64,000 bases of DNA, taken from Escherichia coli. Lineage in GTDB: Bacteria; Pseudomonadota; Gammaproteobacteria; Enterobacterales; Enterobacteriaceae. Position numbers and translations under genes: made by a program. Below the pieces are notes generated by a model, which was given only the letters and a program-made list of their open reading frames with translations, had not been told where the DNA came from and searched no databases. Positions within the stretch are counted from its first letter, which is position 1, and every line of letters begins with the position of its first letter. Where the stretch lies: the NCBI RefSeq assembly GCF_050920415.1, contig NZ_CP169309.1; one strand, given 5' to 3'. This document shows positions 14,871 through 38,554 of the stretch, piece by piece.

Positions 14871-15419
14871 TTATTGATACTGAACCTTGAAGGTCGCATC
14901 CGCATTAGCAGCACCTGGGGTTGCGGCACCGGTTGCAAAGTAACGCGCCTGGAACGGAATGGTGTTAGTACCGTTATTCAGGGTTGTTTGTGCACTAAAT
15001 GTCGCACCGTCCAGCGCCAGCGCAGCACCGGTTCTGTCCAGAATTTGCACACCAACGTTTGTTGCGCTACCTGTAGCAGAACTCTGCAGAGCCAGTACAT
15101 CAGTATGCGTAGCATCAATTGCCGTACCTAAGAAGGCAACAGCGGCTTTTGTAGCAACAGTGGTATCGCAATCATTCAGCTGAATGTTAAAACCAACGGC
15201 AGAGCTGGTTGCTCCAGTCTGCTTCAGGCTAGCGGTACGAACCTGTCCTAACTGAACGGTTTGATCAACAGAGCCTGCATCAACTGCGCAAGCGGCGTTA
15301 ACAACTTCCCCTTTGAAGTGAACGGTCCCACCATTTACCGTCGTAGTATCGGCCAGAGCCGCTGCGGAACTGAGGGACAGAGCCGACAGAACAACGATCG
15401 CCAAAGTTTTAATTTTCAT
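14871..15419 (-). CDS. fimA: Type 1 fimbrial major subunit FimA
   Basis: Start at [23 protein letters not shown] (182 aa) rather than the upstream non-ATG of the track ORF; C-terminal ...ATFKVQYQ. Confidence 0.95.
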
Positions 15420-15537
15420 GCTGCTTTCCTTTAAAAAAACTGTTTCTAAATCGACATGGGCAGTCGTTCTGTACACTTTGTTTTGAAACGAATTGGACTG
15501 CCAACACTGCACAGTTCTTCCCCAAAAGATGAAACAT

Positions 15538-15851
15538 TTGGGGCCATTTTGACTCATAGAGGAAAGCATTACGCACGAACTTTCTTAGTTTATTATTTGG
15601 ATTTATATTCTATTAATACATTCTTTTATAGATTTTCATATTGAACACGGTGGTTTTTGGAGAGATGAATGAGGAAGTTGCTTCGAGACACAGAAACGTT
15701 AACTTTACCTATAGCGGAGGTGATGTGAAATTAATTTATAAGAGAAACAATTTACATATCAAACAGTTAGTTGCTTTATATCGTTTTTTTATATTTTTAT
15801 GCTTGAGAACAAATACAAAACTTTTTTATGATATGGACAGTTTGGCCCCAA
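15538..15851. promoter_or_regulatory. fimS: fimS invertible phase-variation switch (314 bp) bounded by 9-bp inverted repeats; carries the fimA promoter
   Basis: ttggggcca at 15538-15546 and its exact reverse complement tggccccaa at 15843-15851, 314 bp end to end, lying between fimE and fimA. Confidence 0.85.
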
Positions 15852-15898
15852 TTGTCTTATATTTCTTTATCTTTTCATATTATTATCAATAAGTTACA

Positions 15899-16495
15899 TC
15901 AGGCATCTTCTCTTTTTAATTTTTCGTTTATGAGATTATTTCTTTCCCATAATCCGGCAAAACGTGCAGCATTACTGGCGGTATAACGCACAGTATGGCG
16001 AATATTTCGATGCCCGAGATAATCCTGAATTAAACGGGTATCTGCACCACGCTCCGCCAGTTCATAACCGCAAGCATGCCTTAACATATGAGGATGAGTC
16101 TGCGTCACGGTTCCAGCTTCAATACCGGCATCGCGAATAATGCGATAGGCCTGCTGGCGAGAAAGTCGACTCCCGCGGCGAGAAATAAATATGGCGTCGG
16201 TCTGGTCAGCGCCTTTCCAGTTAGTACGTTCCTGGGTCCAGCGCTCCACAGCTTCACGCTCATCAAAACGTAACGGGTGAACGGTAGAAAATCCGTTCTT
16301 CAGTCGGCGGATATTTATTCGACCTTCGTTAAGGTCAAGATCCTGATAATGCAGATCAAGCAGTTCACTAATACGCATCCCATGCCGATATGCCAACAAA
16401 ATTAGGCAATAATCTCTGGCTCCCGTTGCCCCGTAACAAACCGCCTGCATCATGTCCTGAACTTCTTTACCGGTAAGATAACGACGTTTACTCAC
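15899..16495 (-). CDS. fimE: Tyrosine site-specific recombinase FimE (ON-to-OFF inversion of fimS)
   Basis: 198-aa ORF with integrase-family catalytic residues (HPHMLRHACGY...LGHRNIRHTVRYT); the recombinase gene nearest fimS. Confidence 0.95.
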   Translation of the reverse strand: MSKRRYLTGKEVQDMMQAVCYGATGARDYCLILLAYRHGMRISELLDLHYQDLDLNEGRINIRRLKNGFSTVHPLRFDEREAVERWTQERTNWKGADQTDAIFISRRGSRLSRQQAYRIIRDAGIEAGTVTQTHPHMLRHACGYELAERGADTRLIQDYLGHRNIRHTVRYTASNAARFAGLWERNNLINEKLKREDA

Positions 16496-16972: not shown

Positions 16973-17575
16973 CTATAAAACAGCGTGATGCTGTCGTCCT
17001 CTGGCTCTATCCCAGATGCCGTAAAAACGCCCTGCATTGCTGGCGGTATACCAGACAGTATGACGAATATTGCGATGCCCAAGATAATCCTGGATAAGTC
17101 GTGTATCTATTCCCATATTCGCCAAAGCAAAACCACACGAATGGCGTAACATATGCGGATGAATCTCCAGTGATAACCCAGCATTACCACCAGAAGTCGA
17201 GATAATATGGTAAAACTGTTGCCGAGAAAGCGGGTTCCCCTTACGTGATAAAAATACCCACTCGCTCTCAGCATGCGGATAAGAAGTACGTATACTCAAC
17301 CAGTTTTTTAAAGCCTGAACTTCTTTGTTCAATAGCGGGTGCGTTGTTGAAAAGCCTTTTTTTAATCGATGGATATATATACACTTTGCCTTAAGATCAA
17401 TATCCGAAATCCTCAATCGACAAATTTCACTCGCCCGGAAACCATGAATAAAACAAAGCAAAGTCAGACAATAATTACGTGCTGCATGAGGCCCGGTATT
17501 TGCTGCTTTAAGGAGTGACTCGATTTCACTATGGGTCAGGAAGTTCCTTTTTTTGTTATCAGCCTTATTCTTCAT
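16973..17575 (-). CDS. fimB: Tyrosine site-specific recombinase FimB (bidirectional inversion of fimS)
   Basis: 200-aa paralogue of FimE (HPHMLRHSCGF...LGHRNIRHTVWYT), upstream of fimE. Confidence 0.95.
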   Translation of the reverse strand: MKNKADNKKRNFLTHSEIESLLKAANTGPHAARNYCLTLLCFIHGFRASEICRLRISDIDLKAKCIYIHRLKKGFSTTHPLLNKEVQALKNWLSIRTSYPHAESEWVFLSRKGNPLSRQQFYHIISTSGGNAGLSLEIHPHMLRHSCGFALANMGIDTRLIQDYLGHRNIRHTVWYTASNAGRFYGIWDRARGRQHHAVL

Positions 17576-19002
17576 CGTTTTCCCTTATAATTACAGACGC
17601 GCACTAGCTGTGCTGGGTTAGCAATAATCCAACATTTTAATCCTGATTATGTTTATAAAAGCGAACGTTTGCTTAATAACTAACGTAAGTGGACCAGTTC
17701 TTCTGAGTGAACTTAAATGGAGTAGCGATAGTTACTTATAATAACTTTGCCATACAAACGCCATGCTCTTGCATGCTATGTACCTTTATATATTTATCAA
17801 TCTGATACGAATCTAATAATAACCCTCATCATTAATGCAACTAATCTTATCTATATATCATGTGATATGTTCTGTAACAAGTAAAATCAACATAAAAAAT
17901 TCAGCAAAATTTAATATTCGTTCAACTAGCCGTCTCACATATGACATTATTAGTCAACTGCATTTGCCACAAGATGGCTATTTCATGGAACGCAGTAATT
18001 TCTTAGCGTCTATTATCATGCTAATTCTTAGGTCCCTAGCGATTATTCCAGCCTGGTTCGTCAGCTTACGCCATGAGATTGCTACATTCCTTTTTATCAT
18101 GGAGATATGGGGGAAAGCAGGCGACGCTTTTTCATCTACATTCATTGGTAAATATGGCTTTGGTCACTACGCCTTAAACCTTCTTCAATCACAGCTATTC
18201 GCCGGGCGATACGGCAAACAAACTAAGTGAAGCATCATCCTGAAAACACCAATGCGTACTGAACATCAACAAGCCTCTCCTGATCGACTTCAGAAGTGAC
18301 CAGTTACAAGCCACAAACCTGGAAACATATTTCATGATGAGAATTATGCTCAGCCTGATGGCGGGTAAACACTTATTTTCACCACGCTCACTGAGTTAGC
18401 CAGCAAAGGCCTCTTGTTTAGAGAGCAAATAAATTACATATAAAACAAATAGTTAATCAAATATCTTTGATTTGTGAAGGCCATCGTAAGTGTTCGTCTG
18501 ACTTCACATGGCATCTTCTTCATAGAAAAATATAGACATATTTTGTGACACGAATTGCAAATCTGGTTTTGTTATATGGATTGTGTGATTTTTGATCTGG
18601 TATAACAGGTATAAAGGTGTACCGCAGTAGTCAATGAGACTGAGCATCTCGCAATCTATGACAAACATCACTTCAGTCTGAAAGGAATATGAAAATGAGA
18701 TCAACAGACACTCTATTTTATGACTCTGGATAAAATGGATTGAGTAAGTGATATAGCTTACGAACATTCAAATCAATTAAACATCAGAAGAGATTTTATA
18801 CTCAGGTATTTAATCTGGTTCTCTGTTTATTTAAATAATGTGGAAGATAATTTTCACAGGAGACCTTATACAAAAAATATAAAATACAGCTACCAGTTAC
18901 CAAAGACACTATAAGCCTGGCAAAAAATATTACACAACATAAATGCTAATTGTTTATGCGGGCTTTGTATTGCTTTCTGTATCCTACAAATGAGTGAAAT
19001 TT

Positions 19003-19719
19003 ATGAAAAAGGCTAAAATACTTTCTGGCGTATTATTACTGTGCTTTTCGTCACCATTAATTTCTCAAGCTGCGACACTAGACGTACGTGGTGGATATCG
19101 TAGTGGAAGCCACGCCTATGAGACTCGACTCAAAGTCAGTGAGGGATGGCAAAATGGATGGTGGGCAAGTATGGAAAGTAATACCTGGAATACCATTCAT
19201 GATAATAAAAAGGAAAATGCCGCACTCAATGATGTTCAGGTTGAAGTTAATTACGCGATTAAACTTGATGATCAATGGACGGTGCGCCCGGGAATGTTAA
19301 CGCATTTTAGCAGCAACGGCACACGCTACGGACCCTACGTAAAACTGTCCTGGGACGCGACAAAAGATCTTAATTTTGGCATTCGCTATCGTTACGACTG
19401 GAAAGCTTACCGACAACAAGACTTATCCGGTGAGATGTCTCGTGATAACGTTCATCGTTGGGATGGATATGTCACTTACCATATTAATAGTGATTTCACC
19501 TTCGCATGGCAAACGACGCTATACAGCAAACAAAACGATTATCGCTATGCAAACCATAAGAAATGGGCGACGGAAAATGCATTTGTTCTACAATACCATA
19601 TGACGCCTGATATTACGCCATACATAGAATATGACTACCTTGACCGTCAGGGTGTTTATAACGGCAGAGATAATTTATCAGAAAACAGTTATCGCATTGG
19701 TGTGTCATTTAAACTGTAG
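19003..19719 (+). CDS. nanC: KdgM-family outer-membrane channel for N-acetylneuraminic acid
   Basis: 238-aa ORF from MKKAKILSGVLLLCFSSPLISQA with a beta-barrel-like alternating pattern and C-terminal ...YRIGVSFKL. Confidence 0.85.
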   Translation: MKKAKILSGVLLLCFSSPLISQAATLDVRGGYRSGSHAYETRLKVSEGWQNGWWASMESNTWNTIHDNKKENAALNDVQVEVNYAIKLDDQWTVRPGMLTHFSSNGTRYGPYVKLSWDATKDLNFGIRYRYDWKAYRQQDLSGEMSRDNVHRWDGYVTYHINSDFTFAWQTTLYSKQNDYRYANHKKWATENAFVLQYHMTPDITPYIEYDYLDRQGVYNGRDNLSENSYRIGVSFKL

Positions 19720-19738
19720 TAGACAGGAGACAGTCACA

Positions 19739-20845
19739 ATGAATAAAACAATAACGGCGCTTGCTATCATGATGGCTTCATTTGCCGCAAACGCGTCTGT
19801 ATTACCGGAAACTCCGGTGCCATTTAAAAGTGGTACCGGAGCAATTGATAACGACACTGTCTACATTGGTTTAGGTAGCGCAGGTACGGCATGGTACAAG
19901 CTGGATACACAGGCCAAAGATAAAAAATGGATAGCGTTAGCTGCATTCCCTGATGGGGCGAGAGATCAAGCAACCTCTGCATTTATTGATGGCAATCTGT
20001 ACGTATTTGGCGGCATTGGCAAAAACAGCGAAGGCTTGACTCAGGTATTTAATGACGTACACAAATACAACCCCAAAACCAATAGCTGGGTTAAATTGAT
20101 GTCGCACGCGCCGATGGGCATGGCGGGCCATGTGACTTTTGTACACAACGGCAAGGCTTATGTTACTGGCGGTGTTAACCAGAATATCTTCAATGGCTAT
20201 TTTGAAGATCTCAACGAAGCTGGAAAAGATTCAACCGCTATAGATAAAATCAACGCCCACTATTTTGACAAAAAAGCAGAAGATTATTTCTTCAATAAGT
20301 TTCTGTTGTCTTTTGATCCCTCAACACAGCAATGGAGTTACGCTGGCGAATCTCCCTGGTACGGGACGGCTGGTGCAGCGGTTGTGAATAAAGGCGATAA
20401 AACCTGGCTTATTAATGGTGAAGCCAAACCAGGACTACGAACGGATGCCGTATTTGAACTTGATTTCACCGGTAATAATTTGAAATGGAATAAACTTGCT
20501 CCCGTCTCATCACCAGATGGCGTCGCTGGCGGTTTTGCAGGCATGAGCAATGACTCACTTATATTTGCCGGAGGGGCCGGATTCAAAGGTTCACGGGAAA
20601 ATTACCAAAACGGTAAGAACTATGCGCATGAAGGCCTGAAAAAATCATATAGCGCTGATATTCATCTTTGGCATAACGGGAAATGGGATAAATCGGGCGA
20701 ATTATCGCAAGGTCGGGCCTACGGAGTATCATTGCCCTGGAATAATAGTTTATTGATTATTGGCGGTGAAACTGCAGGCGGCAAAGCGGTAACGGATTCA
20801 GTATTGATCTCTGTGAAGGATAATAAAGTCACAGTGCAAAACTAA
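19739..20845 (+). CDS. nanM: N-acetylneuraminate epimerase/mutarotase (Kelch-repeat protein)
   Basis: 368 aa from the internal Met MNKTITALAIMMASFAANA (signal peptide); repeated GG/GH Kelch-like blades; directly follows nanC. Confidence 0.85.
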   Translation: MNKTITALAIMMASFAANASVLPETPVPFKSGTGAIDNDTVYIGLGSAGTAWYKLDTQAKDKKWIALAAFPDGARDQATSAFIDGNLYVFGGIGKNSEGLTQVFNDVHKYNPKTNSWVKLMSHAPMGMAGHVTFVHNGKAYVTGGVNQNIFNGYFEDLNEAGKDSTAIDKINAHYFDKKAEDYFFNKFLLSFDPSTQQWSYAGESPWYGTAGAAVVNKGDKTWLINGEAKPGLRTDAVFELDFTGNNLKWNKLAPVSSPDGVAGGFAGMSNDSLIFAGGAGFKGSRENYQNGKNYAHEGLKKSYSADIHLWHNGKWDKSGELSQGRAYGVSLPWNNSLLIIGGETAGGKAVTDSVLISVKDNKVTVQN

Positions 20846-20909
20846 CGCTTCAGGGCCCCAGTAAAGGGGCCCTACTATCAATTTATCATTTCAATTACGC
20901 GAAAATTAT

Positions 20910-21890
20910 ATGAACGCAATAATATCGCCCGATTATTACTATGTTCTTACCGTTGCTGGTCTGTCTAATGCCATGGCGTATGGCGAAGGACTGCCATTAC
21001 CGGACAGGGAAGATACGCCTCATCCCAGAATTAAACAATTAGCGAGATTTGCGCATACGCATCCCGGAGGCCCGTCATGTCACTTTAACGACATTATTCC
21101 ACTGACTCACTGCCCACACGATGTTCAGGATATGCAGGGTTATCACCATCCTCTGGCAACGAATCATCAAACACAGTACGGCACCGTTGGCCAGGCTCTG
21201 CATATTGCACGGAAATTACAGCCCTTTATTCCTGATAACGCGGGGGTTCTCATCGTTCCATGTTGCCGTGGCGGATCGGCTTTTACTGCGGGCAGCGAAG
21301 GGACATATTCAGAACGGCACGGAGCCAGCCATGATGCTTGTCGTTGGGGAACGGATACCCCTCTATACCAGGATTTAGTCAGCAGAACGCGAGCCGCACT
21401 GGCAAAAAATCCGCATAACAAATTCCTCGGCGTATGCTGGATGCAAGGCGAATTTGACTTAATGACAAGTGACTACGCGTCACACCCTCAACACTTTAAT
21501 CATATGGTTGAAGCCTTTCGTAGGGATCTAAAACAATACCATTCTCAGCTTAATAATATTACTGGCGCGCCGTGGTTTTGCGGCGATACCACCTGGTACT
21601 GGAAAGAAAGTTTCCCTCATGCGTATGAAGCTATTTATGGCAATTATCAAAATAATATTTTAGCCAATATTATTTTCATCGACTTCCAGCAACAAGGTGA
21701 AAGAGGGCTGACGAACGCGCCTGATGAAGATCCGGACGATTTAAGCACGGGATATTTCGGTTCAGCGTACCGGTCACCGGAGAACTGGACGACGGCACTG
21801 CGAAGCAGTCATTTCAGCGCGGCAGCCCGTCGGGGGATTATTTCTGACAGGTTTGTAGAAGCAATTTTGCAGTTTTGGAGCGAAAGGTGA
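20910..21890 (+). CDS. nanS: 9-O-acetyl-N-acetylneuraminate esterase (YjhS)
   Basis: 326-aa ORF downstream of nanM in the same orientation. Confidence 0.8.
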   Translation: MNAIISPDYYYVLTVAGLSNAMAYGEGLPLPDREDTPHPRIKQLARFAHTHPGGPSCHFNDIIPLTHCPHDVQDMQGYHHPLATNHQTQYGTVGQALHIARKLQPFIPDNAGVLIVPCCRGGSAFTAGSEGTYSERHGASHDACRWGTDTPLYQDLVSRTRAALAKNPHNKFLGVCWMQGEFDLMTSDYASHPQHFNHMVEAFRRDLKQYHSQLNNITGAPWFCGDTTWYWKESFPHAYEAIYGNYQNNILANIIFIDFQQQGERGLTNAPDEDPDDLSTGYFGSAYRSPENWTTALRSSHFSAAARRGIISDRFVEAILQFWSER

Positions 21891-22472
21891 GCGGGGAGTT
21901 TATTCATGGGGGATGTCCTTGTCCGTTCCCAAAACAGGCAACAAAAAACAAATGAGATCAAGGTAATATCTCTTCACTTGCAGGCTCGAACAGCAGGCAA
22001 TTGCCAATATAATAATCTGGCACAAGGGTGAAAAACGCGCACCGCATAAACCGTTGTTATTGCTTAAAGATTAGCCGGATGCCTTAATAGACATCCGCGC
22101 CTTTTCGATTATGGCTCGGAAATCTACGAACCTCTGCACAGTTTACTGGAACGTTTTGGACCACAGCGTTCACAGTACCGACCTGATATGCCGTTCTGGC
22201 GATTATAAGGCGACGGATTCTGGCAAATAGACGATGATAATATGCTTAATGATGTTCAAAGAAATTAGGCCATCATTATATTATTGCTTGCATTTTCTTT
22301 CATTCCCAAAAGCACCCGCCATTAATCCCAGGCGCATTATGCAAAGGAAAATGATTAGGTAAACAATAAGATTTATAATCAGGAAAGGCGACTCGCAATA
22401 AAACGCAAAGTCGCCTTAACATTGGTAAAATATGCCCTTTACTACTCCTGTATCATGAACGGCTCATCACAT

Positions 22473-25400
22473 TTAAAGCTGACGTTGATCCAGACTGCTA
22501 TATATTGCCTTTATTTCATTTTTTACGCTTTCGCCACGGTACACCAAAGACGTATCGTATCGTTGATACTTATCTTCCCGTGCAGCACTGAACCAGTTAA
22601 AAGATCCGACACACAGCAGTTCTTCATCCTCAATCACAATTTTGCTGTGGACACGATTAACCAATTTCGTAGCGATACCCATCTTATTGAGCTTTTCAAC
22701 AGCATCATTCAGCAGATGTTTTTTCTCCTGACGCTTATCATCATCGACATGCGCTATATTGCAGTTTTTATCCGTCACCACAGTAATATCAATGCCCCGG
22801 GAACGGGCCAAAGCCATTGATGCCAGAAATCCCGTTTGCTCCATTTTTTGCCAGGATAACCAAGGGGAAATAATCGTTATTTTCTTTTGAGCTCCGGCAA
22901 GAGTCATGTTCAAAAATTCATCATGCTGCTCCACGCCATGCAGCGTTGAAATTTGTGTATGTGCGGAAATTAAATCCTGTCGTTTATGAAACTCAAATTG
23001 CAACGCATTATTATCTGAAGAAAAGAGATATTTTGCCAATAACCCTCGCGGCGAAAATGCGGGCTGCATCTCGATAAGGTCCATATCGCCAAATACCAGA
23101 AAACTATCTTTAGCGCGTGAGACAGCAACATTGAGGATACTGCTGTTGCTATCAAGAAACCTGCCATCTTCATGTTTTGAGTAGACTGGAGAAAAGAGAA
23201 CAATCGCCCTTTCCGCCCCCTGCAAGGAGTGCACAGTCCCCACTGTCAGTGAACCCTCCTCGTCTTTGCCATTAATTTCCAGCTTACGCAATGACGTTTT
23301 GATAGCATTAACCTGCGCCGAAAATGGCGTCACAACACCAACAACTTTGTACAGTGGTTCCCCGTAATGGCGCTCTATATCATCCTTATGTGCCACCAGC
23401 CATGCTGCTATTGTTTCAGCTTCAAGAGGGTTATAACGGCTCCCCCCATTTGGCTTCATGCCTCTACCATCAATATGTAAATATCCCATTGCGGGGAAAA
23501 TCGTCCCTTTTTCCATCCCTCTTTTAGGCTGCAACTTACCGTGATAGCAAAGTGAGTTACAGTAGCCGATGATGTTATTGAAACAGCGACGATGCTCATA
23601 CAGATACATTCCGCGCTCGAACTTGGGATCATACTGGTAGTGAGAGTTAAACTGGGCTACCTGCATTACGCTGCCAGATGCTGCACTTTTTCCAGACCCA
23701 CACACGTGAGTATATGTATTTATTAACTCTTCCTGAGTGCCACCAGAAATAATATTCTCCTCAAGCATATTGCCCATATCAGTGACGGGTAGACAATTCC
23801 AGATTGGAGCTATTTGCTCCGTATCGCCAATCACCAGCGCTTTCTTCGCCAATGCAAAGGAAGCTGCAGCAACCTCCGGGAGTACCTGCCCGGCTTCATC
23901 GACAATCAGTAAATCAGCAAAGTTATATAAATAATTATTATCCGATGTTCTATCGCCACCAAAAGATTTTCTTCTGTTCATATGGTAAGGCAACATGTAG
24001 CAGGTCATCACCACACAAGGAGTAAGTTTCATTCTTCTTAGCCAACGAGCCTCGGCGATAGTTATCCCGGTAATTCCTTTTTCTTTTTGCAAATTATCTA
24101 TAGCTGCCATATCAATCAGCCAACGCCCCTCCCAATAATGGGTCGCTACCAAGAACGCTGGAAAACGAATCTGAGTATCGGCAAGTTCATCCGCTCCTGA
24201 AAGATTCAATTCATCGTCACCTCTGTAACCCAAAGCATAAGTCAACTCACGCCATTGTTTTGCAGCTTCTATTTCGCGTCGGGCTATATCCTTCGCATAG
24301 TTGATGTTCTGTTGGCACTCATCCTGCTCCTTTTGCGTTTTAGCAATCAAACTATCAATAAATTCATCAATATCTTCGGGATAATTTCCCTGGAACGATG
24401 TCATTCTTGTGCCAAACGTAGAGTCCAGGAAGAGGTTAATCTGGTAATGGCGTTTAGTACGAACAGCAGGAAGCCATGACAAAACCGCATACACTAGCGA
24501 CTCATCAGCACGGTATTGCTGCCACTGCTTTTTACCTCTTGTTAAAAGTGAAATTTCATTGCCAATATTGAGAAGACGTGTGTTTTCGTCCTGAAGATAC
24601 TGGTCGAGATTCTCACTGATGGCTCGCTGTTCATGGCGGATATCATTAAGCCTGCGCCATGTGGGTTCGATTTGCTGAAGTTGAATAAACTGTGAAGTTA
24701 AACGTTCATGCAAAAGCGTCACTACATGCTCTGGTGAATTGCACTCTCCAGCTCCAAACGCCACCTCCGCTTTTTCAAGGTAAAATGCCCGGGCTTTTTC
24801 CAGATATTCCTGGGATTCAACGTGGTTAAAAAAATCTTCAGTCTGGTATTTCTTCGCAGCCTCAACCTGACGGCTTTTAGACGGAAAATAAGCGCCATAG
24901 CTTATTACCTCCGGCAACCAACGACCAGCCATTACGCCAAAACCAGTAGAGAAATCTTTTCCAAAGGCTTCAATAATATTGGTGACGGCCTGATTGTTAG
25001 TTGATGTGGCAATAATTACAGGAGGTTCAGCTTGATTAAGTGCGGCTCTAGTCCATTCGGTGGCGATAATAGAAAGCACCAGCGTAGTTTTACCCGTTCC
25101 CGGAGGACCGTTAACAGCGAGCATATCCCCCTGCTGTTGAGTCAGATAATGGCTCAGGGCATCGCGCTGCGCCACTGCCAGCGGAAACTTATCGCCGGAA
25201 TGCCCCAGACGTTCGCAGAACATAGCATTCTTAGCGAGAAGTGGCTCTAGTGGAACCATTTCATTTGAGGCAAAACGCGTTAATAGAGGAACCTTAACCT
25301 GGCTCATCAGCAGATGGTCATACAAAGGCAGGATATGAACACTGGCCCCTACATGCTGGCTAGCTTTAACAATATAACCGTATCCAGCCCGTTCGTATGG

Positions 25401-25988
25401 CTCAGATGTAGCGACCCAATTTCCAGCGACGTTTCTTAAAAGGTTATCTGACTGTTGAAGATAATTTTGCCAATGCTGACGATACCTGGCATGGCGTTCC
25501 GCTTTCTCTTCGTCAGTTTCTTTGTAATGTTCTGGTTGACCTTCATTAATGGTGGCTGTGTTATGCGTAGTTTTGTATTTGTCATATTGCACCAACTCAC
25601 CAATAGAAAAATGACCGGAAGGGAGAGGTTCAAGCAGATCGCGGGGAATAGTGGCTGAAGCGGCAGGAAACAAAAAACCTTCCCTATTAAGAAGAGCGGA
25701 GGTAACCAGTGGCGTAATAATTGCGGGTGCACCTGCCGTTTGCTCTTTGCCATGCTTTACAATGCGGTTCCACACCTGGGGCCGTAACACGACTTCAACG
25801 TTTTTTACAGACTCCCCTTCACCGTCAAAAAATGCCCGAATAGTTTCGTCATCCAACTGCCCTGCGGTGATATTTATCCACCGAATGAATGATTCCGTAT
25901 CTTTACGTGAAAACGTTCCTTTGCCAGATTCGGCGTCAGCTAGGGAGTTGCGCCAGTATGAAGTGAATCCCAATGTATTGCTGTCCAT
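22473..25988 (-). CDS. Large SF1 helicase (Upf1/Dna2-like ATPase core) fused to a C-terminal phospholipase-D/HKD nuclease domain; candidate single-gene defence protein
   Basis: 1171-codon [15 protein letters not shown] Walker A (aa 294-302; nt 25083-25109); LLIVDEAGQ motif II (DEAGQ aa 697-701; nt 23886-23900); [11 protein letters not shown] and [10 protein letters not shown] resembling SF1 motifs V/VI; C-terminal [21 protein letters not shown] = HxK(x)4D...GSxN signature (nt 22596-22649); sits immediately 3' of tRNA-leuX. Confidence 0.8.
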
Positions 25989-26253
25989 TTCTCATTCCGT
26001 GACATAATAGAAATCATTGATTTCATTGATGTAAATATTACTTATGATTAAACATTGTCCACGATGCGAGCGCGATCGCAATAAATATTGTGCCTGGAGG
26101 ATGGATTAGATTTTCTGAAAGAGCTAAATCCTTAATAGATAAACGCGTACATACTTGGTTCGGTATTCTTAAGGGATTTAATATGGATTGAACCAGGTTG
26201 ACGTTAGTTGAAAAAAACAGTGGAAAAGATTTGTGTGGCGCGGATTTCAGGCA

Positions 26254-26278
26254 TAAAAAAAGACCTCAGTTGAGGTCT
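26254..26278 (-). terminator. Probable intrinsic terminator of tRNA-leuX
   Basis: Hairpin agacctca/tgaggtct; read on the minus strand it is followed by a run of 7 T, directly after the tRNA 3' end. Confidence 0.5.
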
Positions 26279-26291
26279 ATTTACATACTTT

Positions 26292-26376
26292 TGGTGCCGA
26301 AGGCCGGACTCGAACCGGCACGTATTTCTACGGTTGATTTTGAATCAACTGCGTCTACCGATTTCGCCACTTCGGC
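26292..26376 (-). tRNA. leuX: tRNA-Leu (anticodon CAA)
   Basis: Reverse complement reads GCCGAAGTGGCGAAATCGGTAGACGCAGTTGATTCAAAATCAACCGTAGAAATACGTGCCGGTTCGAGTCCGGCCTTCGGCACCA: 85 nt, cloverleaf-compatible, CAA anticodon, encoded CCA end. Confidence 0.95.

Positions 26377-36829: not shown

Positions 36830-38344
<1,515 letters not shown>

Positions 38345-38360: not shown

Positions 38361-38554
<194 letters not shown>

What the first reader, a model, noticed from the sequence alone, without database searches (positions are those of the whole stretch)
15538..15851. fimS invertible switch may be captured in the phase-OFF orientation
The 314-bp element is flanked by perfect 9-bp inverted repeats. 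The best sigma70-like promoter abutting an inverted repeat is TTGAGA (15803-15808), an 18-bp spacer, then TATGAT (15827-15832) on the plus strand, pointing toward fimE and away from fimA, which is on the minus strand. My recollection is that the fimA promoter -10 is TATGATA and lies next to the fimA-proximal inverted repeat in phase ON, so this molecule would be phase OFF. An alternative fimA-directed promoter-like element (TTGATA, 16-bp spacer, TATAAA) sits mid-switch on the minus strand, so the call is uncertain.
Basis: partly seen in the sequence, partly recalled or inferred. Interest (0 to 1): 0.45.

Follow-up and report, generated by a model that had tools for sequence, protein, structure and literature searches.

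The report
fimS pilus switch, OFF orientation
This is the well-known invertible DNA switch that turns E. coli type 1 pili on and off, and it was sequenced in its usual "off" position, as in about 94% of complete E. coli genomes, so the finding is correct but ordinary.

Summary
Window 15538-15851 is the 314-bp fimS element, bounded by perfect 9-bp inverted repeats (TTGGGGCCA / TGGCCCCAA). It lies between fimE and fimA, both on the minus strand. TTGAGA-N18-TATGAT sits at 15803-15832 on the plus strand, next to the fimE-proximal repeat, and points away from fimA.

The phase-OFF call is supported. The switch is collinear with three references that are OFF by published criteria:
- MG1655 gives the published OFF fragments in silico for both the SnaBI and the BstUI assay.
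- The UTI89 reference is stated to be OFF by the authors of PMC6458436.
- NZ_AP021890, which gives the published ON fragments, is inverted relative to the window.

OFF is the default state in assemblies. Of 4725 complete E. coli genomes with the locus, 4451 are collinear with the window and 250 with a synthetically flipped version.

FimB, FimE, the repeats, the adjoining recombinase half-sites and both IHF consensus sites are intact. The switch therefore looks captured in OFF rather than locked.

One mildly unusual point: this fimS allele is rare, with 13 of 4693 genomes at 95% identity or more. It has lost the SnaBI and BstUI sites used in the standard orientation assays.

Already known; low interest.

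The parts
15538..15851 (-). fimS, the 314-bp invertible switch of the type 1 fimbrial operon, in the phase-OFF orientation
   Evidence: Gapless 275/314 identity to MG1655 fimS in the same orientation and 110/314 when flipped. Collinear with the OFF references MG1655 and UTI89 and inverted relative to the ON-type NZ_AP021890.
15538..15546 (.). IRR, the fimA-proximal 9-bp inverted repeat TTGGGGCCA (recombination site)
   Evidence: The sequence equals the published repeat 5'-TTGGGGCCA (PMC8777976).
15843..15851 (.). IRL, the fimE-proximal 9-bp inverted repeat TGGCCCCAA (recombination site)
15803..15832 (+). PfimA: -35 TTGAGA (15803-15808), 18-bp spacer, -10 TATGAT (15827-15832), reading toward fimE and away from fimA. 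The predicted start is near A15839.
   Evidence: Found by the scan. Both hexamers are identical in MG1655, UTI89 and the window although 4 of the 18 spacer bases differ. The -10 is also identical in C. amalonaticus, where the -35 is TTGCAA at the same 18-bp spacing. The assignment of these hexamers to the mapped fimA promoter (Olsen and Klemm 1994) rests on my own knowledge; the start site is inferred.
15757..15769 (+). IHF site II, inside the switch: TATCAAACAGTTA, matching WATCAANNNNTTR
   Evidence: Consensus search; identical in MG1655. Literature: one IHF site lies inside fimS and one adjacent to it (PMC11316696; PMC9993118).
15884..15896 (+). IHF site I, outside the switch between IRL and the fimE stop codon: TATCAATAAGTTA
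   Evidence: Consensus search. Literature: IHF-1 is adjacent to IRL (PMC9993118).
15582..15612 (.). Region homologous to the K-12 Fis / LRP-2 binding region at the promoter-distal end. It lies on the fimA side, as expected in OFF.
   Evidence: Placed by aligning the published mutagenesis primer FBSREV2 and its description (PMC9993118) to MG1655, and MG1655 to the window. The window differs from K-12 at several positions here.
14871..15419 (-). fimA, major type 1 fimbrial subunit, disconnected from its promoter in this orientation
   Evidence: ORF; PGAP annotation of the near-identical record NZ_CP169399.
15899..16495 (-). fimE, tyrosine recombinase (ON-to-OFF), intact at 198 aa
   Evidence: It has 5 amino-acid differences from MG1655 FimE (positions 14, 91, 98, 197, 198); my judgement is that none is a catalytic residue.
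16973..17575 (-). fimB, tyrosine recombinase (bidirectional), intact at 200 aa
   Evidence: One amino-acid difference from MG1655 FimB, at position 196.
15735..15762 (-).
   Evidence: Read. TTGATA is the reverse complement of the IHF II core, and the -10 lacks the final T. K-12 has TGTAAA at the -10 position.

Best explanation
Window 15538-15851 is fimS, the invertible promoter element that controls phase variation of E. coli type 1 fimbriae. In this molecule it is in the phase-OFF orientation.

The fimA promoter (TTGAGA-18-TATGAT) lies next to the fimE-proximal repeat. It fires toward fimE, antisense to fimE's 3' end, so fimAICDFGH has no promoter and the cell is non-fimbriate.

The tyrosine recombinases FimB (either direction) and FimE (ON-to-OFF) are encoded just upstream. 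They cut and rejoin within the two 9-bp inverted repeats, helped by IHF at sites I and II and by Lrp and Fis at the promoter-distal end. Because FimE dominates, most cells in a culture are OFF, and an assembly consensus therefore normally shows OFF.

Shown here:
- the identity of the element;
- its orientation relative to validated references;
- the intactness of the recombinases, the repeats and the IHF sites;
- the predominance of OFF in public genomes.

Inferred from the literature on K-12:
- the promoter's transcription start;
- Rho-dependent termination of fimE mRNA inside the OFF-oriented switch;
- the ability of this particular allele to invert.
For: - Anatomy.
- Same orientation as MG1655 (275/314 same versus 110/314 flipped) and as UTI89 (271 versus 111).
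- MG1655 reproduces the published OFF fragment sizes in two independent assays: SnaBI 162+442 against 161+440 (PMC4374849) and BstUI 540+188 against 539+187 (PMC9993118).
- NZ_AP021890 reproduces the published ON sizes, 405+198 and 293+434, and is the exact inversion of MG1655 between the repeats at 311/314.
- The UTI89 reference is stated to be OFF (PMC6458436).
- The Fis/LRP-2 end is 'promoter-distal' and forms the right end in OFF (PMC9993118). In the window this end is next to fimA.
- Survey: 4451 of 4725 genomes with the locus are collinear with the window, and 250 are collinear with the synthetic flipped sequence.
- Stool metagenomes show about 7.7% ON (PMC10925322).
- FimB and FimE are full length with 1 and 5 substitutions. 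Both IHF consensus sites are conserved. The sequences next to the repeats are identical to K-12 for at least 7 bp outside and at least 18 bp inside each repeat.
- The mechanism statements (FimB/FimE roles, IHF, Lrp, Fis, the Rho-dependent terminator active only in OFF) come from PMC9993118 and PMC2647292.
Against: - I could not retrieve the primary paper that mapped the fimA promoter. Equating TTGAGA/TATGAT with PfimA therefore rests on my recollection, on its position at the end opposite the 'promoter-distal' Fis site, and on cross-genus conservation.
- One non-specialist paper (PMC5979011) names its 'active-direction' primer in a way that would prime on the MG1655 orientation. Its product sizes (710 bp ON, 718 bp OFF) nevertheless fit MG1655 = OFF, so I treat the primer naming as a text error.
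- No genome carrying this rare allele is seen in the ON orientation (13 of 13 OFF), so inversion of this allele is not directly shown.
Confidence: 0.95

Rival explanations
1. The switch is not merely caught in OFF but genetically locked there. This allele would no longer invert, as in O157:H7 (a deletion within fimS) or Shigella (fimB nonsense mutation).
For: All 13 complete genomes with this allele are OFF. The allele differs from K-12 at 39 of 314 positions, and 23 of these are clustered in the Lrp/Fis end that promotes OFF-to-ON bias (role of that end in PMC9993118).
Against: - With a background ON rate of about 5%, 13 of 13 OFF is what chance predicts.
- The element is 314 bp with no indel relative to K-12.
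- Both repeats are perfect and the flanking half-site sequences are identical to K-12.
- Both IHF sites are intact.
- FimB and FimE are full length with only 1 and 5 substitutions, none of which I judge to be at a catalytic residue.
Confidence: 0.08
2. In this orientation fimA is still transcribed, from the mid-switch minus-strand element TTGATA-16-TATAAA (15762-15735). The molecule would then be functionally ON or leaky.
For: The element exists and points toward fimA. In this allele the -10-like hexamer is TATAAA, closer to consensus than the TGTAAA of K-12.
Against: - TTGATA is the reverse complement of the core of IHF site II (15757-15769), a high-affinity IHF site according to PMC11316696, so it is likely occupied.
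- The hexamer lacks the highly conserved final T of the -10 and did not pass the scan's criteria; the scan found only a 9/12 variant, TTGATA-18-TAAATT, which K-12 also has.
- Promoter-like matches in this AT-rich region are at chance level, 4 found against 2.5 +/- 1.9 expected.
- In the reviews read here, transcription is abolished in the OFF orientation (PMC2636892).
Confidence: 0.04
3. The orientation in the assembly is an artefact or an arbitrary consensus of a mixed population and says nothing about the culture.
For: [quoted passage not shown] Mixed ON/OFF reads are commonly seen (PMC10925322; PMC6458436). A consensus hides minority molecules.
Against: A consensus reports the majority, and the majority state in broth culture is OFF. 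The independently assembled, near-identical genome NZ_CP169399 shows the same orientation. This view complements the main explanation rather than contradicting it.
Confidence: 0.1

Closest known systems
fimS of E. coli K-12 MG1655 and UPEC UTI89 (reference sequences, phase OFF)
   Same: - Same locus order: fimB-fimE-fimS-fimA.
- Same 314-bp length and the same 9-bp repeats.
- The same promoter hexamers at the same spacing.
- The same IHF I and II sites.
- The same orientation.
   Different: - 39 of 314 substitutions relative to MG1655 (87.6% identity), concentrated in the Lrp/Fis end.
- The SnaBI and BstUI sites used to assay orientation are lost.
- The allele is shared at 95% identity or more by only 13 of 4693 complete genomes.
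Phase-ON fimS as assembled in NZ_AP021890 and E. coli E69 (CP089930)
   Same: The same element, with the same repeats and flanks.
   Different: The 314-bp segment is reverse-complemented, so TTGAGA-18-TATGAT abuts the fimA-proximal repeat and reads into fimA.
fimS-like switch of Citrobacter amalonaticus S646
   Same: - A FimE homologue 84% identical.
- The same 9-bp repeats.
- An identical 24-bp stretch covering the repeat and the -10 TATGAT (the exact-match search pattern).
- A -35-like hexamer at the same 18-bp spacing.
- An OFF-type orientation in the assembly.
   Different: The interior of the switch is strongly diverged and the -35 is TTGCAA. I am not aware of experimental work on it.

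Membership tests
fimS invertible switch of type 1 fimbriae | A 314-bp segment bounded by perfect 9-bp inverted repeats, 5'-TTGGGGCCA | tested here: met
   15538-15546 and 15843-15851; element length 314 bp. Definition taken from PMC8777976 and PMC2647292.
fimS invertible switch of type 1 fimbriae | Located immediately upstream of fimA and downstream of the recombinase genes fimB and fimE | tested here: met
   fimB 16973-17575, fimE 15899-16495 and fimA 14871-15419, all on the minus strand.
fimS invertible switch of type 1 fimbriae | Sequence homology to the characterised K-12 element | tested here: met
   275/314 identical with no gaps.
fimS invertible switch of type 1 fimbriae | Carries the fimA promoter next to one repeat | tested here: met
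   TTGAGA-18-TATGAT at 15803-15832. The hexamers are invariant in MG1655, UTI89 and the window, and the -10 is invariant in Citrobacter. Promoter activity and the start site cannot be tested with these tools.
fimS invertible switch of type 1 fimbriae | IHF sites, one inside and one adjacent to the element | tested here: met
   Consensus matches at 15757-15769 and 15884-15896, conserved with K-12. Binding itself was not tested.
fimS invertible switch of type 1 fimbriae | Actually inverts by recombination within the repeats | tested here: inconclusive
   Inversion exactly at the repeats is seen between genomes that carry the common allele (MG1655 versus NZ_AP021890, 311/314 as reverse complement; 250 ON-type genomes). 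For this rare allele all 13 genomes are OFF. No reads are available.
Phase-OFF state of fimS | Collinear with references validated as OFF, and inverted relative to an ON reference | tested here: met
   - MG1655 is OFF by the published SnaBI and BstUI fragment sizes (PMC4374849, PMC9993118).
- UTI89 is stated to be OFF (PMC6458436).
- The window is collinear with both and inverted relative to NZ_AP021890.
Phase-OFF state of fimS | The promoter is directed away from fimA, and the promoter-distal (Fis/LRP-2) end is next to fimA | tested here: met
   description in PMC9993118.
Phase-OFF state of fimS | No fimA transcription and no fimbriae | not testable with these tools
   This needs expression or agglutination data from the strain.

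The most novel reading that the evidence does not exclude
The window carries a rare, roughly 12% diverged fimS allele, shared at 95% identity or more by only 13 of 4693 complete genomes. Its substitutions cluster in the Lrp/Fis-binding, promoter-distal end. They also sharpen two promoter-like elements that matter only in the OFF orientation: TATAAA in the mid-switch element pointing toward fimA, and TATATT in a hybrid element spanning the fimE-proximal junction. This allele could have a different switching bias, or leaky or antisense transcription in OFF, compared with the K-12 and UPEC switches.
Probability: 0.1. Interest if true: 0.3.

Novelty: already known. Interest (0 to 1): 0.07.

Why it matters
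It matters little beyond correct annotation. fimS is among the best-studied invertible promoters, and OFF is its default state in cultures and assemblies.

Two practical points follow:
- This strain's allele lacks the SnaBI and BstUI sites, so the two standard PCR-digest orientation assays would give an uncut product. They could not report the switch's orientation in this strain. HinfI, or orientation-specific PCR with primers redesigned for this allele, would still work.
- About 5% of complete E. coli genomes are deposited with the switch ON. Comparative pipelines should treat this 314-bp inversion as phase variation, not as a structural variant.

Tried and rejected
- I tried to retrieve the primary papers on the fimA promoter and the terminator (Abraham 1985, PMC390624; Hinde 2005, PMC1317003; Kelly 2006, PMC1540041). 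None is held.
- A full-text search for 'TATGAT' plus 'fimA' returned no paper on the E. coli fimA promoter; the listed titles concern other topics and I did not open them. A search for 'antisense' plus 'fimE' returned only a review.
- The orientation-specific primers of PMC5979011 are internally inconsistent: the sizes fit MG1655 = OFF, but the primer naming fits the opposite. I did not rely on them.
- The statistical significance of the 9-bp repeat and of the promoter match alone is not above chance. The argument therefore rests on homology and on observed inversions.
- A scan of one genome per species for the repeat plus the -10 found only three loci: E. coli E69, C. amalonaticus, and a probably mis-binned 'Bacteroides' MAG contig. 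It did not reveal a donor for the rare allele.
- An 83-aa plus-strand ORF at 15641-15892 crosses the repeat boundary in AT-rich DNA. I disregarded it as a mechanical ORF.
- No terminator-like hairpin was found in 15350-16000. This is consistent with the fimE terminator being Rho-dependent, but it is not informative.

Full report
**Observation.**
- TTGGGGCCA is at 15538-15546 and its complement TGGCCCCAA is at 15843-15851, delimiting 314 bp. Each 9-mer occurs once in the window.
- On the plus strand, TTGAGA (15803-15808), 18 bp and TATGAT (15827-15832) form a 10/12 sigma-70-like site.
- fimA (14871-15419), fimE (15899-16495) and fimB (16973-17575) lie on the minus strand. The same coordinates carry these names in the PGAP annotation of NZ_CP169399. 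That record is identical to the window apart from two substitutions and an IS2 that the window lacks.
- The alternative minus-strand element TTGATA-16-TATAAA is at 15762-15735.

**Is it more than chance?** Not from the motifs alone.
- Perfect 9-mer inverted repeats 250-350 nt apart are common: 51 seeds in the window against about 26 +/- 7 in block shuffles.
- The AT-rich region gives 4 promoter-like hits against 2.5 +/- 1.9 expected.

The feature is real because of three other lines of evidence.
- It aligns without gaps to the K-12 switch at 275/314 positions.
- Natural genomes differ by an inversion whose breakpoints are exactly these repeats. MG1655 and NZ_AP021890 match at 97/314 as written and at 311/314 when one is reverse-complemented.
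- A 24-bp stretch covering the repeat and the -10 TATGAT is identical in a Citrobacter amalonaticus locus. That locus has a FimE homologue 84% identical to the window's, a -35-like TTGCAA at the same 18-bp spacing, and an interior that has otherwise diverged strongly.

**Which orientation is OFF?** I tested this against published, experimentally used definitions rather than memory.
[quoted passage not shown] In silico, MG1655 gives 162+442 and NZ_AP021890 gives 405+198.
- PMC9993118 (Dorman laboratory) gives primers OL4 and OL20 and BstUI fragments of 539+187 bp for OFF and 433+293 bp for ON. MG1655 gives 540+188 and NZ_AP021890 gives 293+434.
- PMC6458436 states that the UTI89 reference genome has fimS OFF. 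UTI89 is collinear with MG1655, at 302/314 against 99 when flipped.
[quoted passage not shown] In MG1655 and in the window this end adjoins fimA.

The window is collinear with MG1655 (275 against 110) and with UTI89 (271 against 111). In all three, TTGAGA-18-TATGAT reads toward fimE.

One source, PMC5979011, is internally inconsistent. Its product sizes fit this assignment, but its primer naming does not.

**How common is this?** A 1-kb query across the switch is matched collinearly (at least 80% in one piece) in 4451 of 4725 complete E. coli genomes that have the locus. The same query with the 314 bp flipped in silico is matched collinearly in 250. The remaining 24 match neither. So about 94% of assemblies are OFF and about 5% are ON. 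This fits the roughly 7.7% ON measured from reads in stool metagenomes (PMC10925322) and the dominance of FimE-driven ON-to-OFF switching (PMC9993118, PMC2647292). An OFF consensus is the expected outcome.

**Mechanism.**

Shown here:
- The element, its repeats and the promoter orientation.
- Intact FimB (one substitution, position 196) and FimE (five substitutions, positions 14, 91, 98, 197, 198).
- Flanks next to both repeats identical to K-12, where the recombinase half-sites lie.
- Conserved IHF consensus sites inside the switch (15757-15769) and beside it (15884-15896).

Taken from the literature:
- FimB inverts in both directions and FimE mainly ON-to-OFF.
- IHF is essential for inversion.
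- Lrp and Fis bias the switch toward ON.
- A Rho-dependent terminator within fimS shortens and destabilises the fimE transcript only in OFF.

Inferred:
- In this molecule PfimA should start near A15839 and transcribe through IRL into the 3' end of fimE as antisense RNA, leaving fimAICDFGH without a promoter.
- The switch is probably competent to invert, because all known parts are intact. This allele has not been seen in ON, however.

TTGATA (15762-15757) is the reverse complement of the TATCAA core of IHF site II. The TATAAA hexamer lacks the conserved final T. The scan tool found only a 9/12 variant, TTGATA-18-TAAATT, which K-12 shares. Reviews state that transcription of fimA is abolished in the OFF orientation (PMC2636892). 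I give this rival about 4%.

**What is unusual?** Only the allele.
- The 314 bp are 95% or more identical in just 13 of 4693 genomes; 4667 are in the 80-90% band.
- All 13 are OFF. That is not significant given a 5% ON background.
- Of the 39 differences from MG1655, 23 fall in MG1655 positions 204-282 of the element, the Lrp/Fis end.
- The fim cluster as a whole is 95-97% identical to K-12. The lowest values in 200-bp bins, 87-92%, span 15001-16000, the 5' part of fimA, fimS and the 3' end of fimE.
- The substitutions remove the SnaBI and BstUI sites, so both standard assays would leave the amplicon uncut. HinfI still distinguishes the orientations.
- To my knowledge, sequence heterogeneity of the fim switch among isolates has been described before (Leathart and Gally 1998; not read here).

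**Verdict.** This is a correct reading of a textbook element in its default state. It is already known and of low interest, with a small residual possibility that the rare allele behaves differently.

Noticed in passing
window 15538-15851: The fimS allele is rare. Only 13 of 4693 complete E. coli genomes have a switch 95% or more identical, and 4667 are 80-90% identical. Of the 39 differences from MG1655, 23 cluster at the Lrp/Fis end, around window 15570-15648.
   Followed up: partly
window 15400-16000: This allele lacks the SnaBI (TACGTA) and BstUI (CGCG) sites on which the two standard PCR-digest orientation assays depend. The Inv-1/Inv-2 and OL4/OL20 amplicons would stay uncut. The HinfI site near IRR is retained.
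   Followed up: yes
window 15834-15863 (+): A second 10/12 promoter-like site, TGGACA-18-TATATT, spans the fimE-proximal repeat. It exists only in the OFF orientation and reads toward fimE. K-12 has the weaker TGTATT at the -10 position. It may be chance.
   Followed up: no
window ~20962-20966, versus NZ_CP169399 locus L008 20967-22297: The window equals E. coli MFDS1022581 over at least 48.7 kb, except for 2 substitutions and an IS2 copy downstream of nanM that is present in that genome and absent from the window.
   Followed up: yes
window 17576-26376: Only about 9 kb separate fimB from tRNA-Leu(CAA) leuX at 26292-26376. The stretch holds nanC, nanM, a truncated sialate O-acetylesterase gene, a fragment of a phosphorothioate-dependent restriction endonuclease gene, and yjhR (annotation of the near-identical record). 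From memory, the leuX-adjacent island is much larger in K-12.
   Followed up: no
window 37391-37585 (-), 38421-38496 (-), 55568-55683 (-): Rfam hits above the gathering score: Ysr276 (188 bits), which by the near-identical record's annotation lies close to the lptF start and the small gene ytgA; naRNA4 (75 bits); and a Mg2+ riboswitch (126 bits). These look like ordinary core-genome features.
   Followed up: no
L006 (Citrobacter amalonaticus S646) 1285-2380; L005 (E. coli E69): C. amalonaticus carries a fimE-fimS-fimA locus with the same 9-bp repeats and the same -10, assembled in the OFF-type orientation. The E. coli genome found in the one-genome-per-species collection, E69, is assembled in the ON-type orientation.
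   Followed up: partly
L004 (CAUHML010000277.1): A 3.3-kb contig binned into an 'uncultured Bacteroides sp.' MAG ends in the E. coli fimS repeat and -10 sequence. It is probably a mis-binned Escherichia contig.
   Followed up: no
literature: PMC5979011: In this paper the primer named for the 'active' fimS direction primes on the MG1655 (OFF) orientation, giving 718 bp. Its reverse complement gives about 710 bp on an ON genome. The names appear swapped relative to the stated product sizes.
   Followed up: yes
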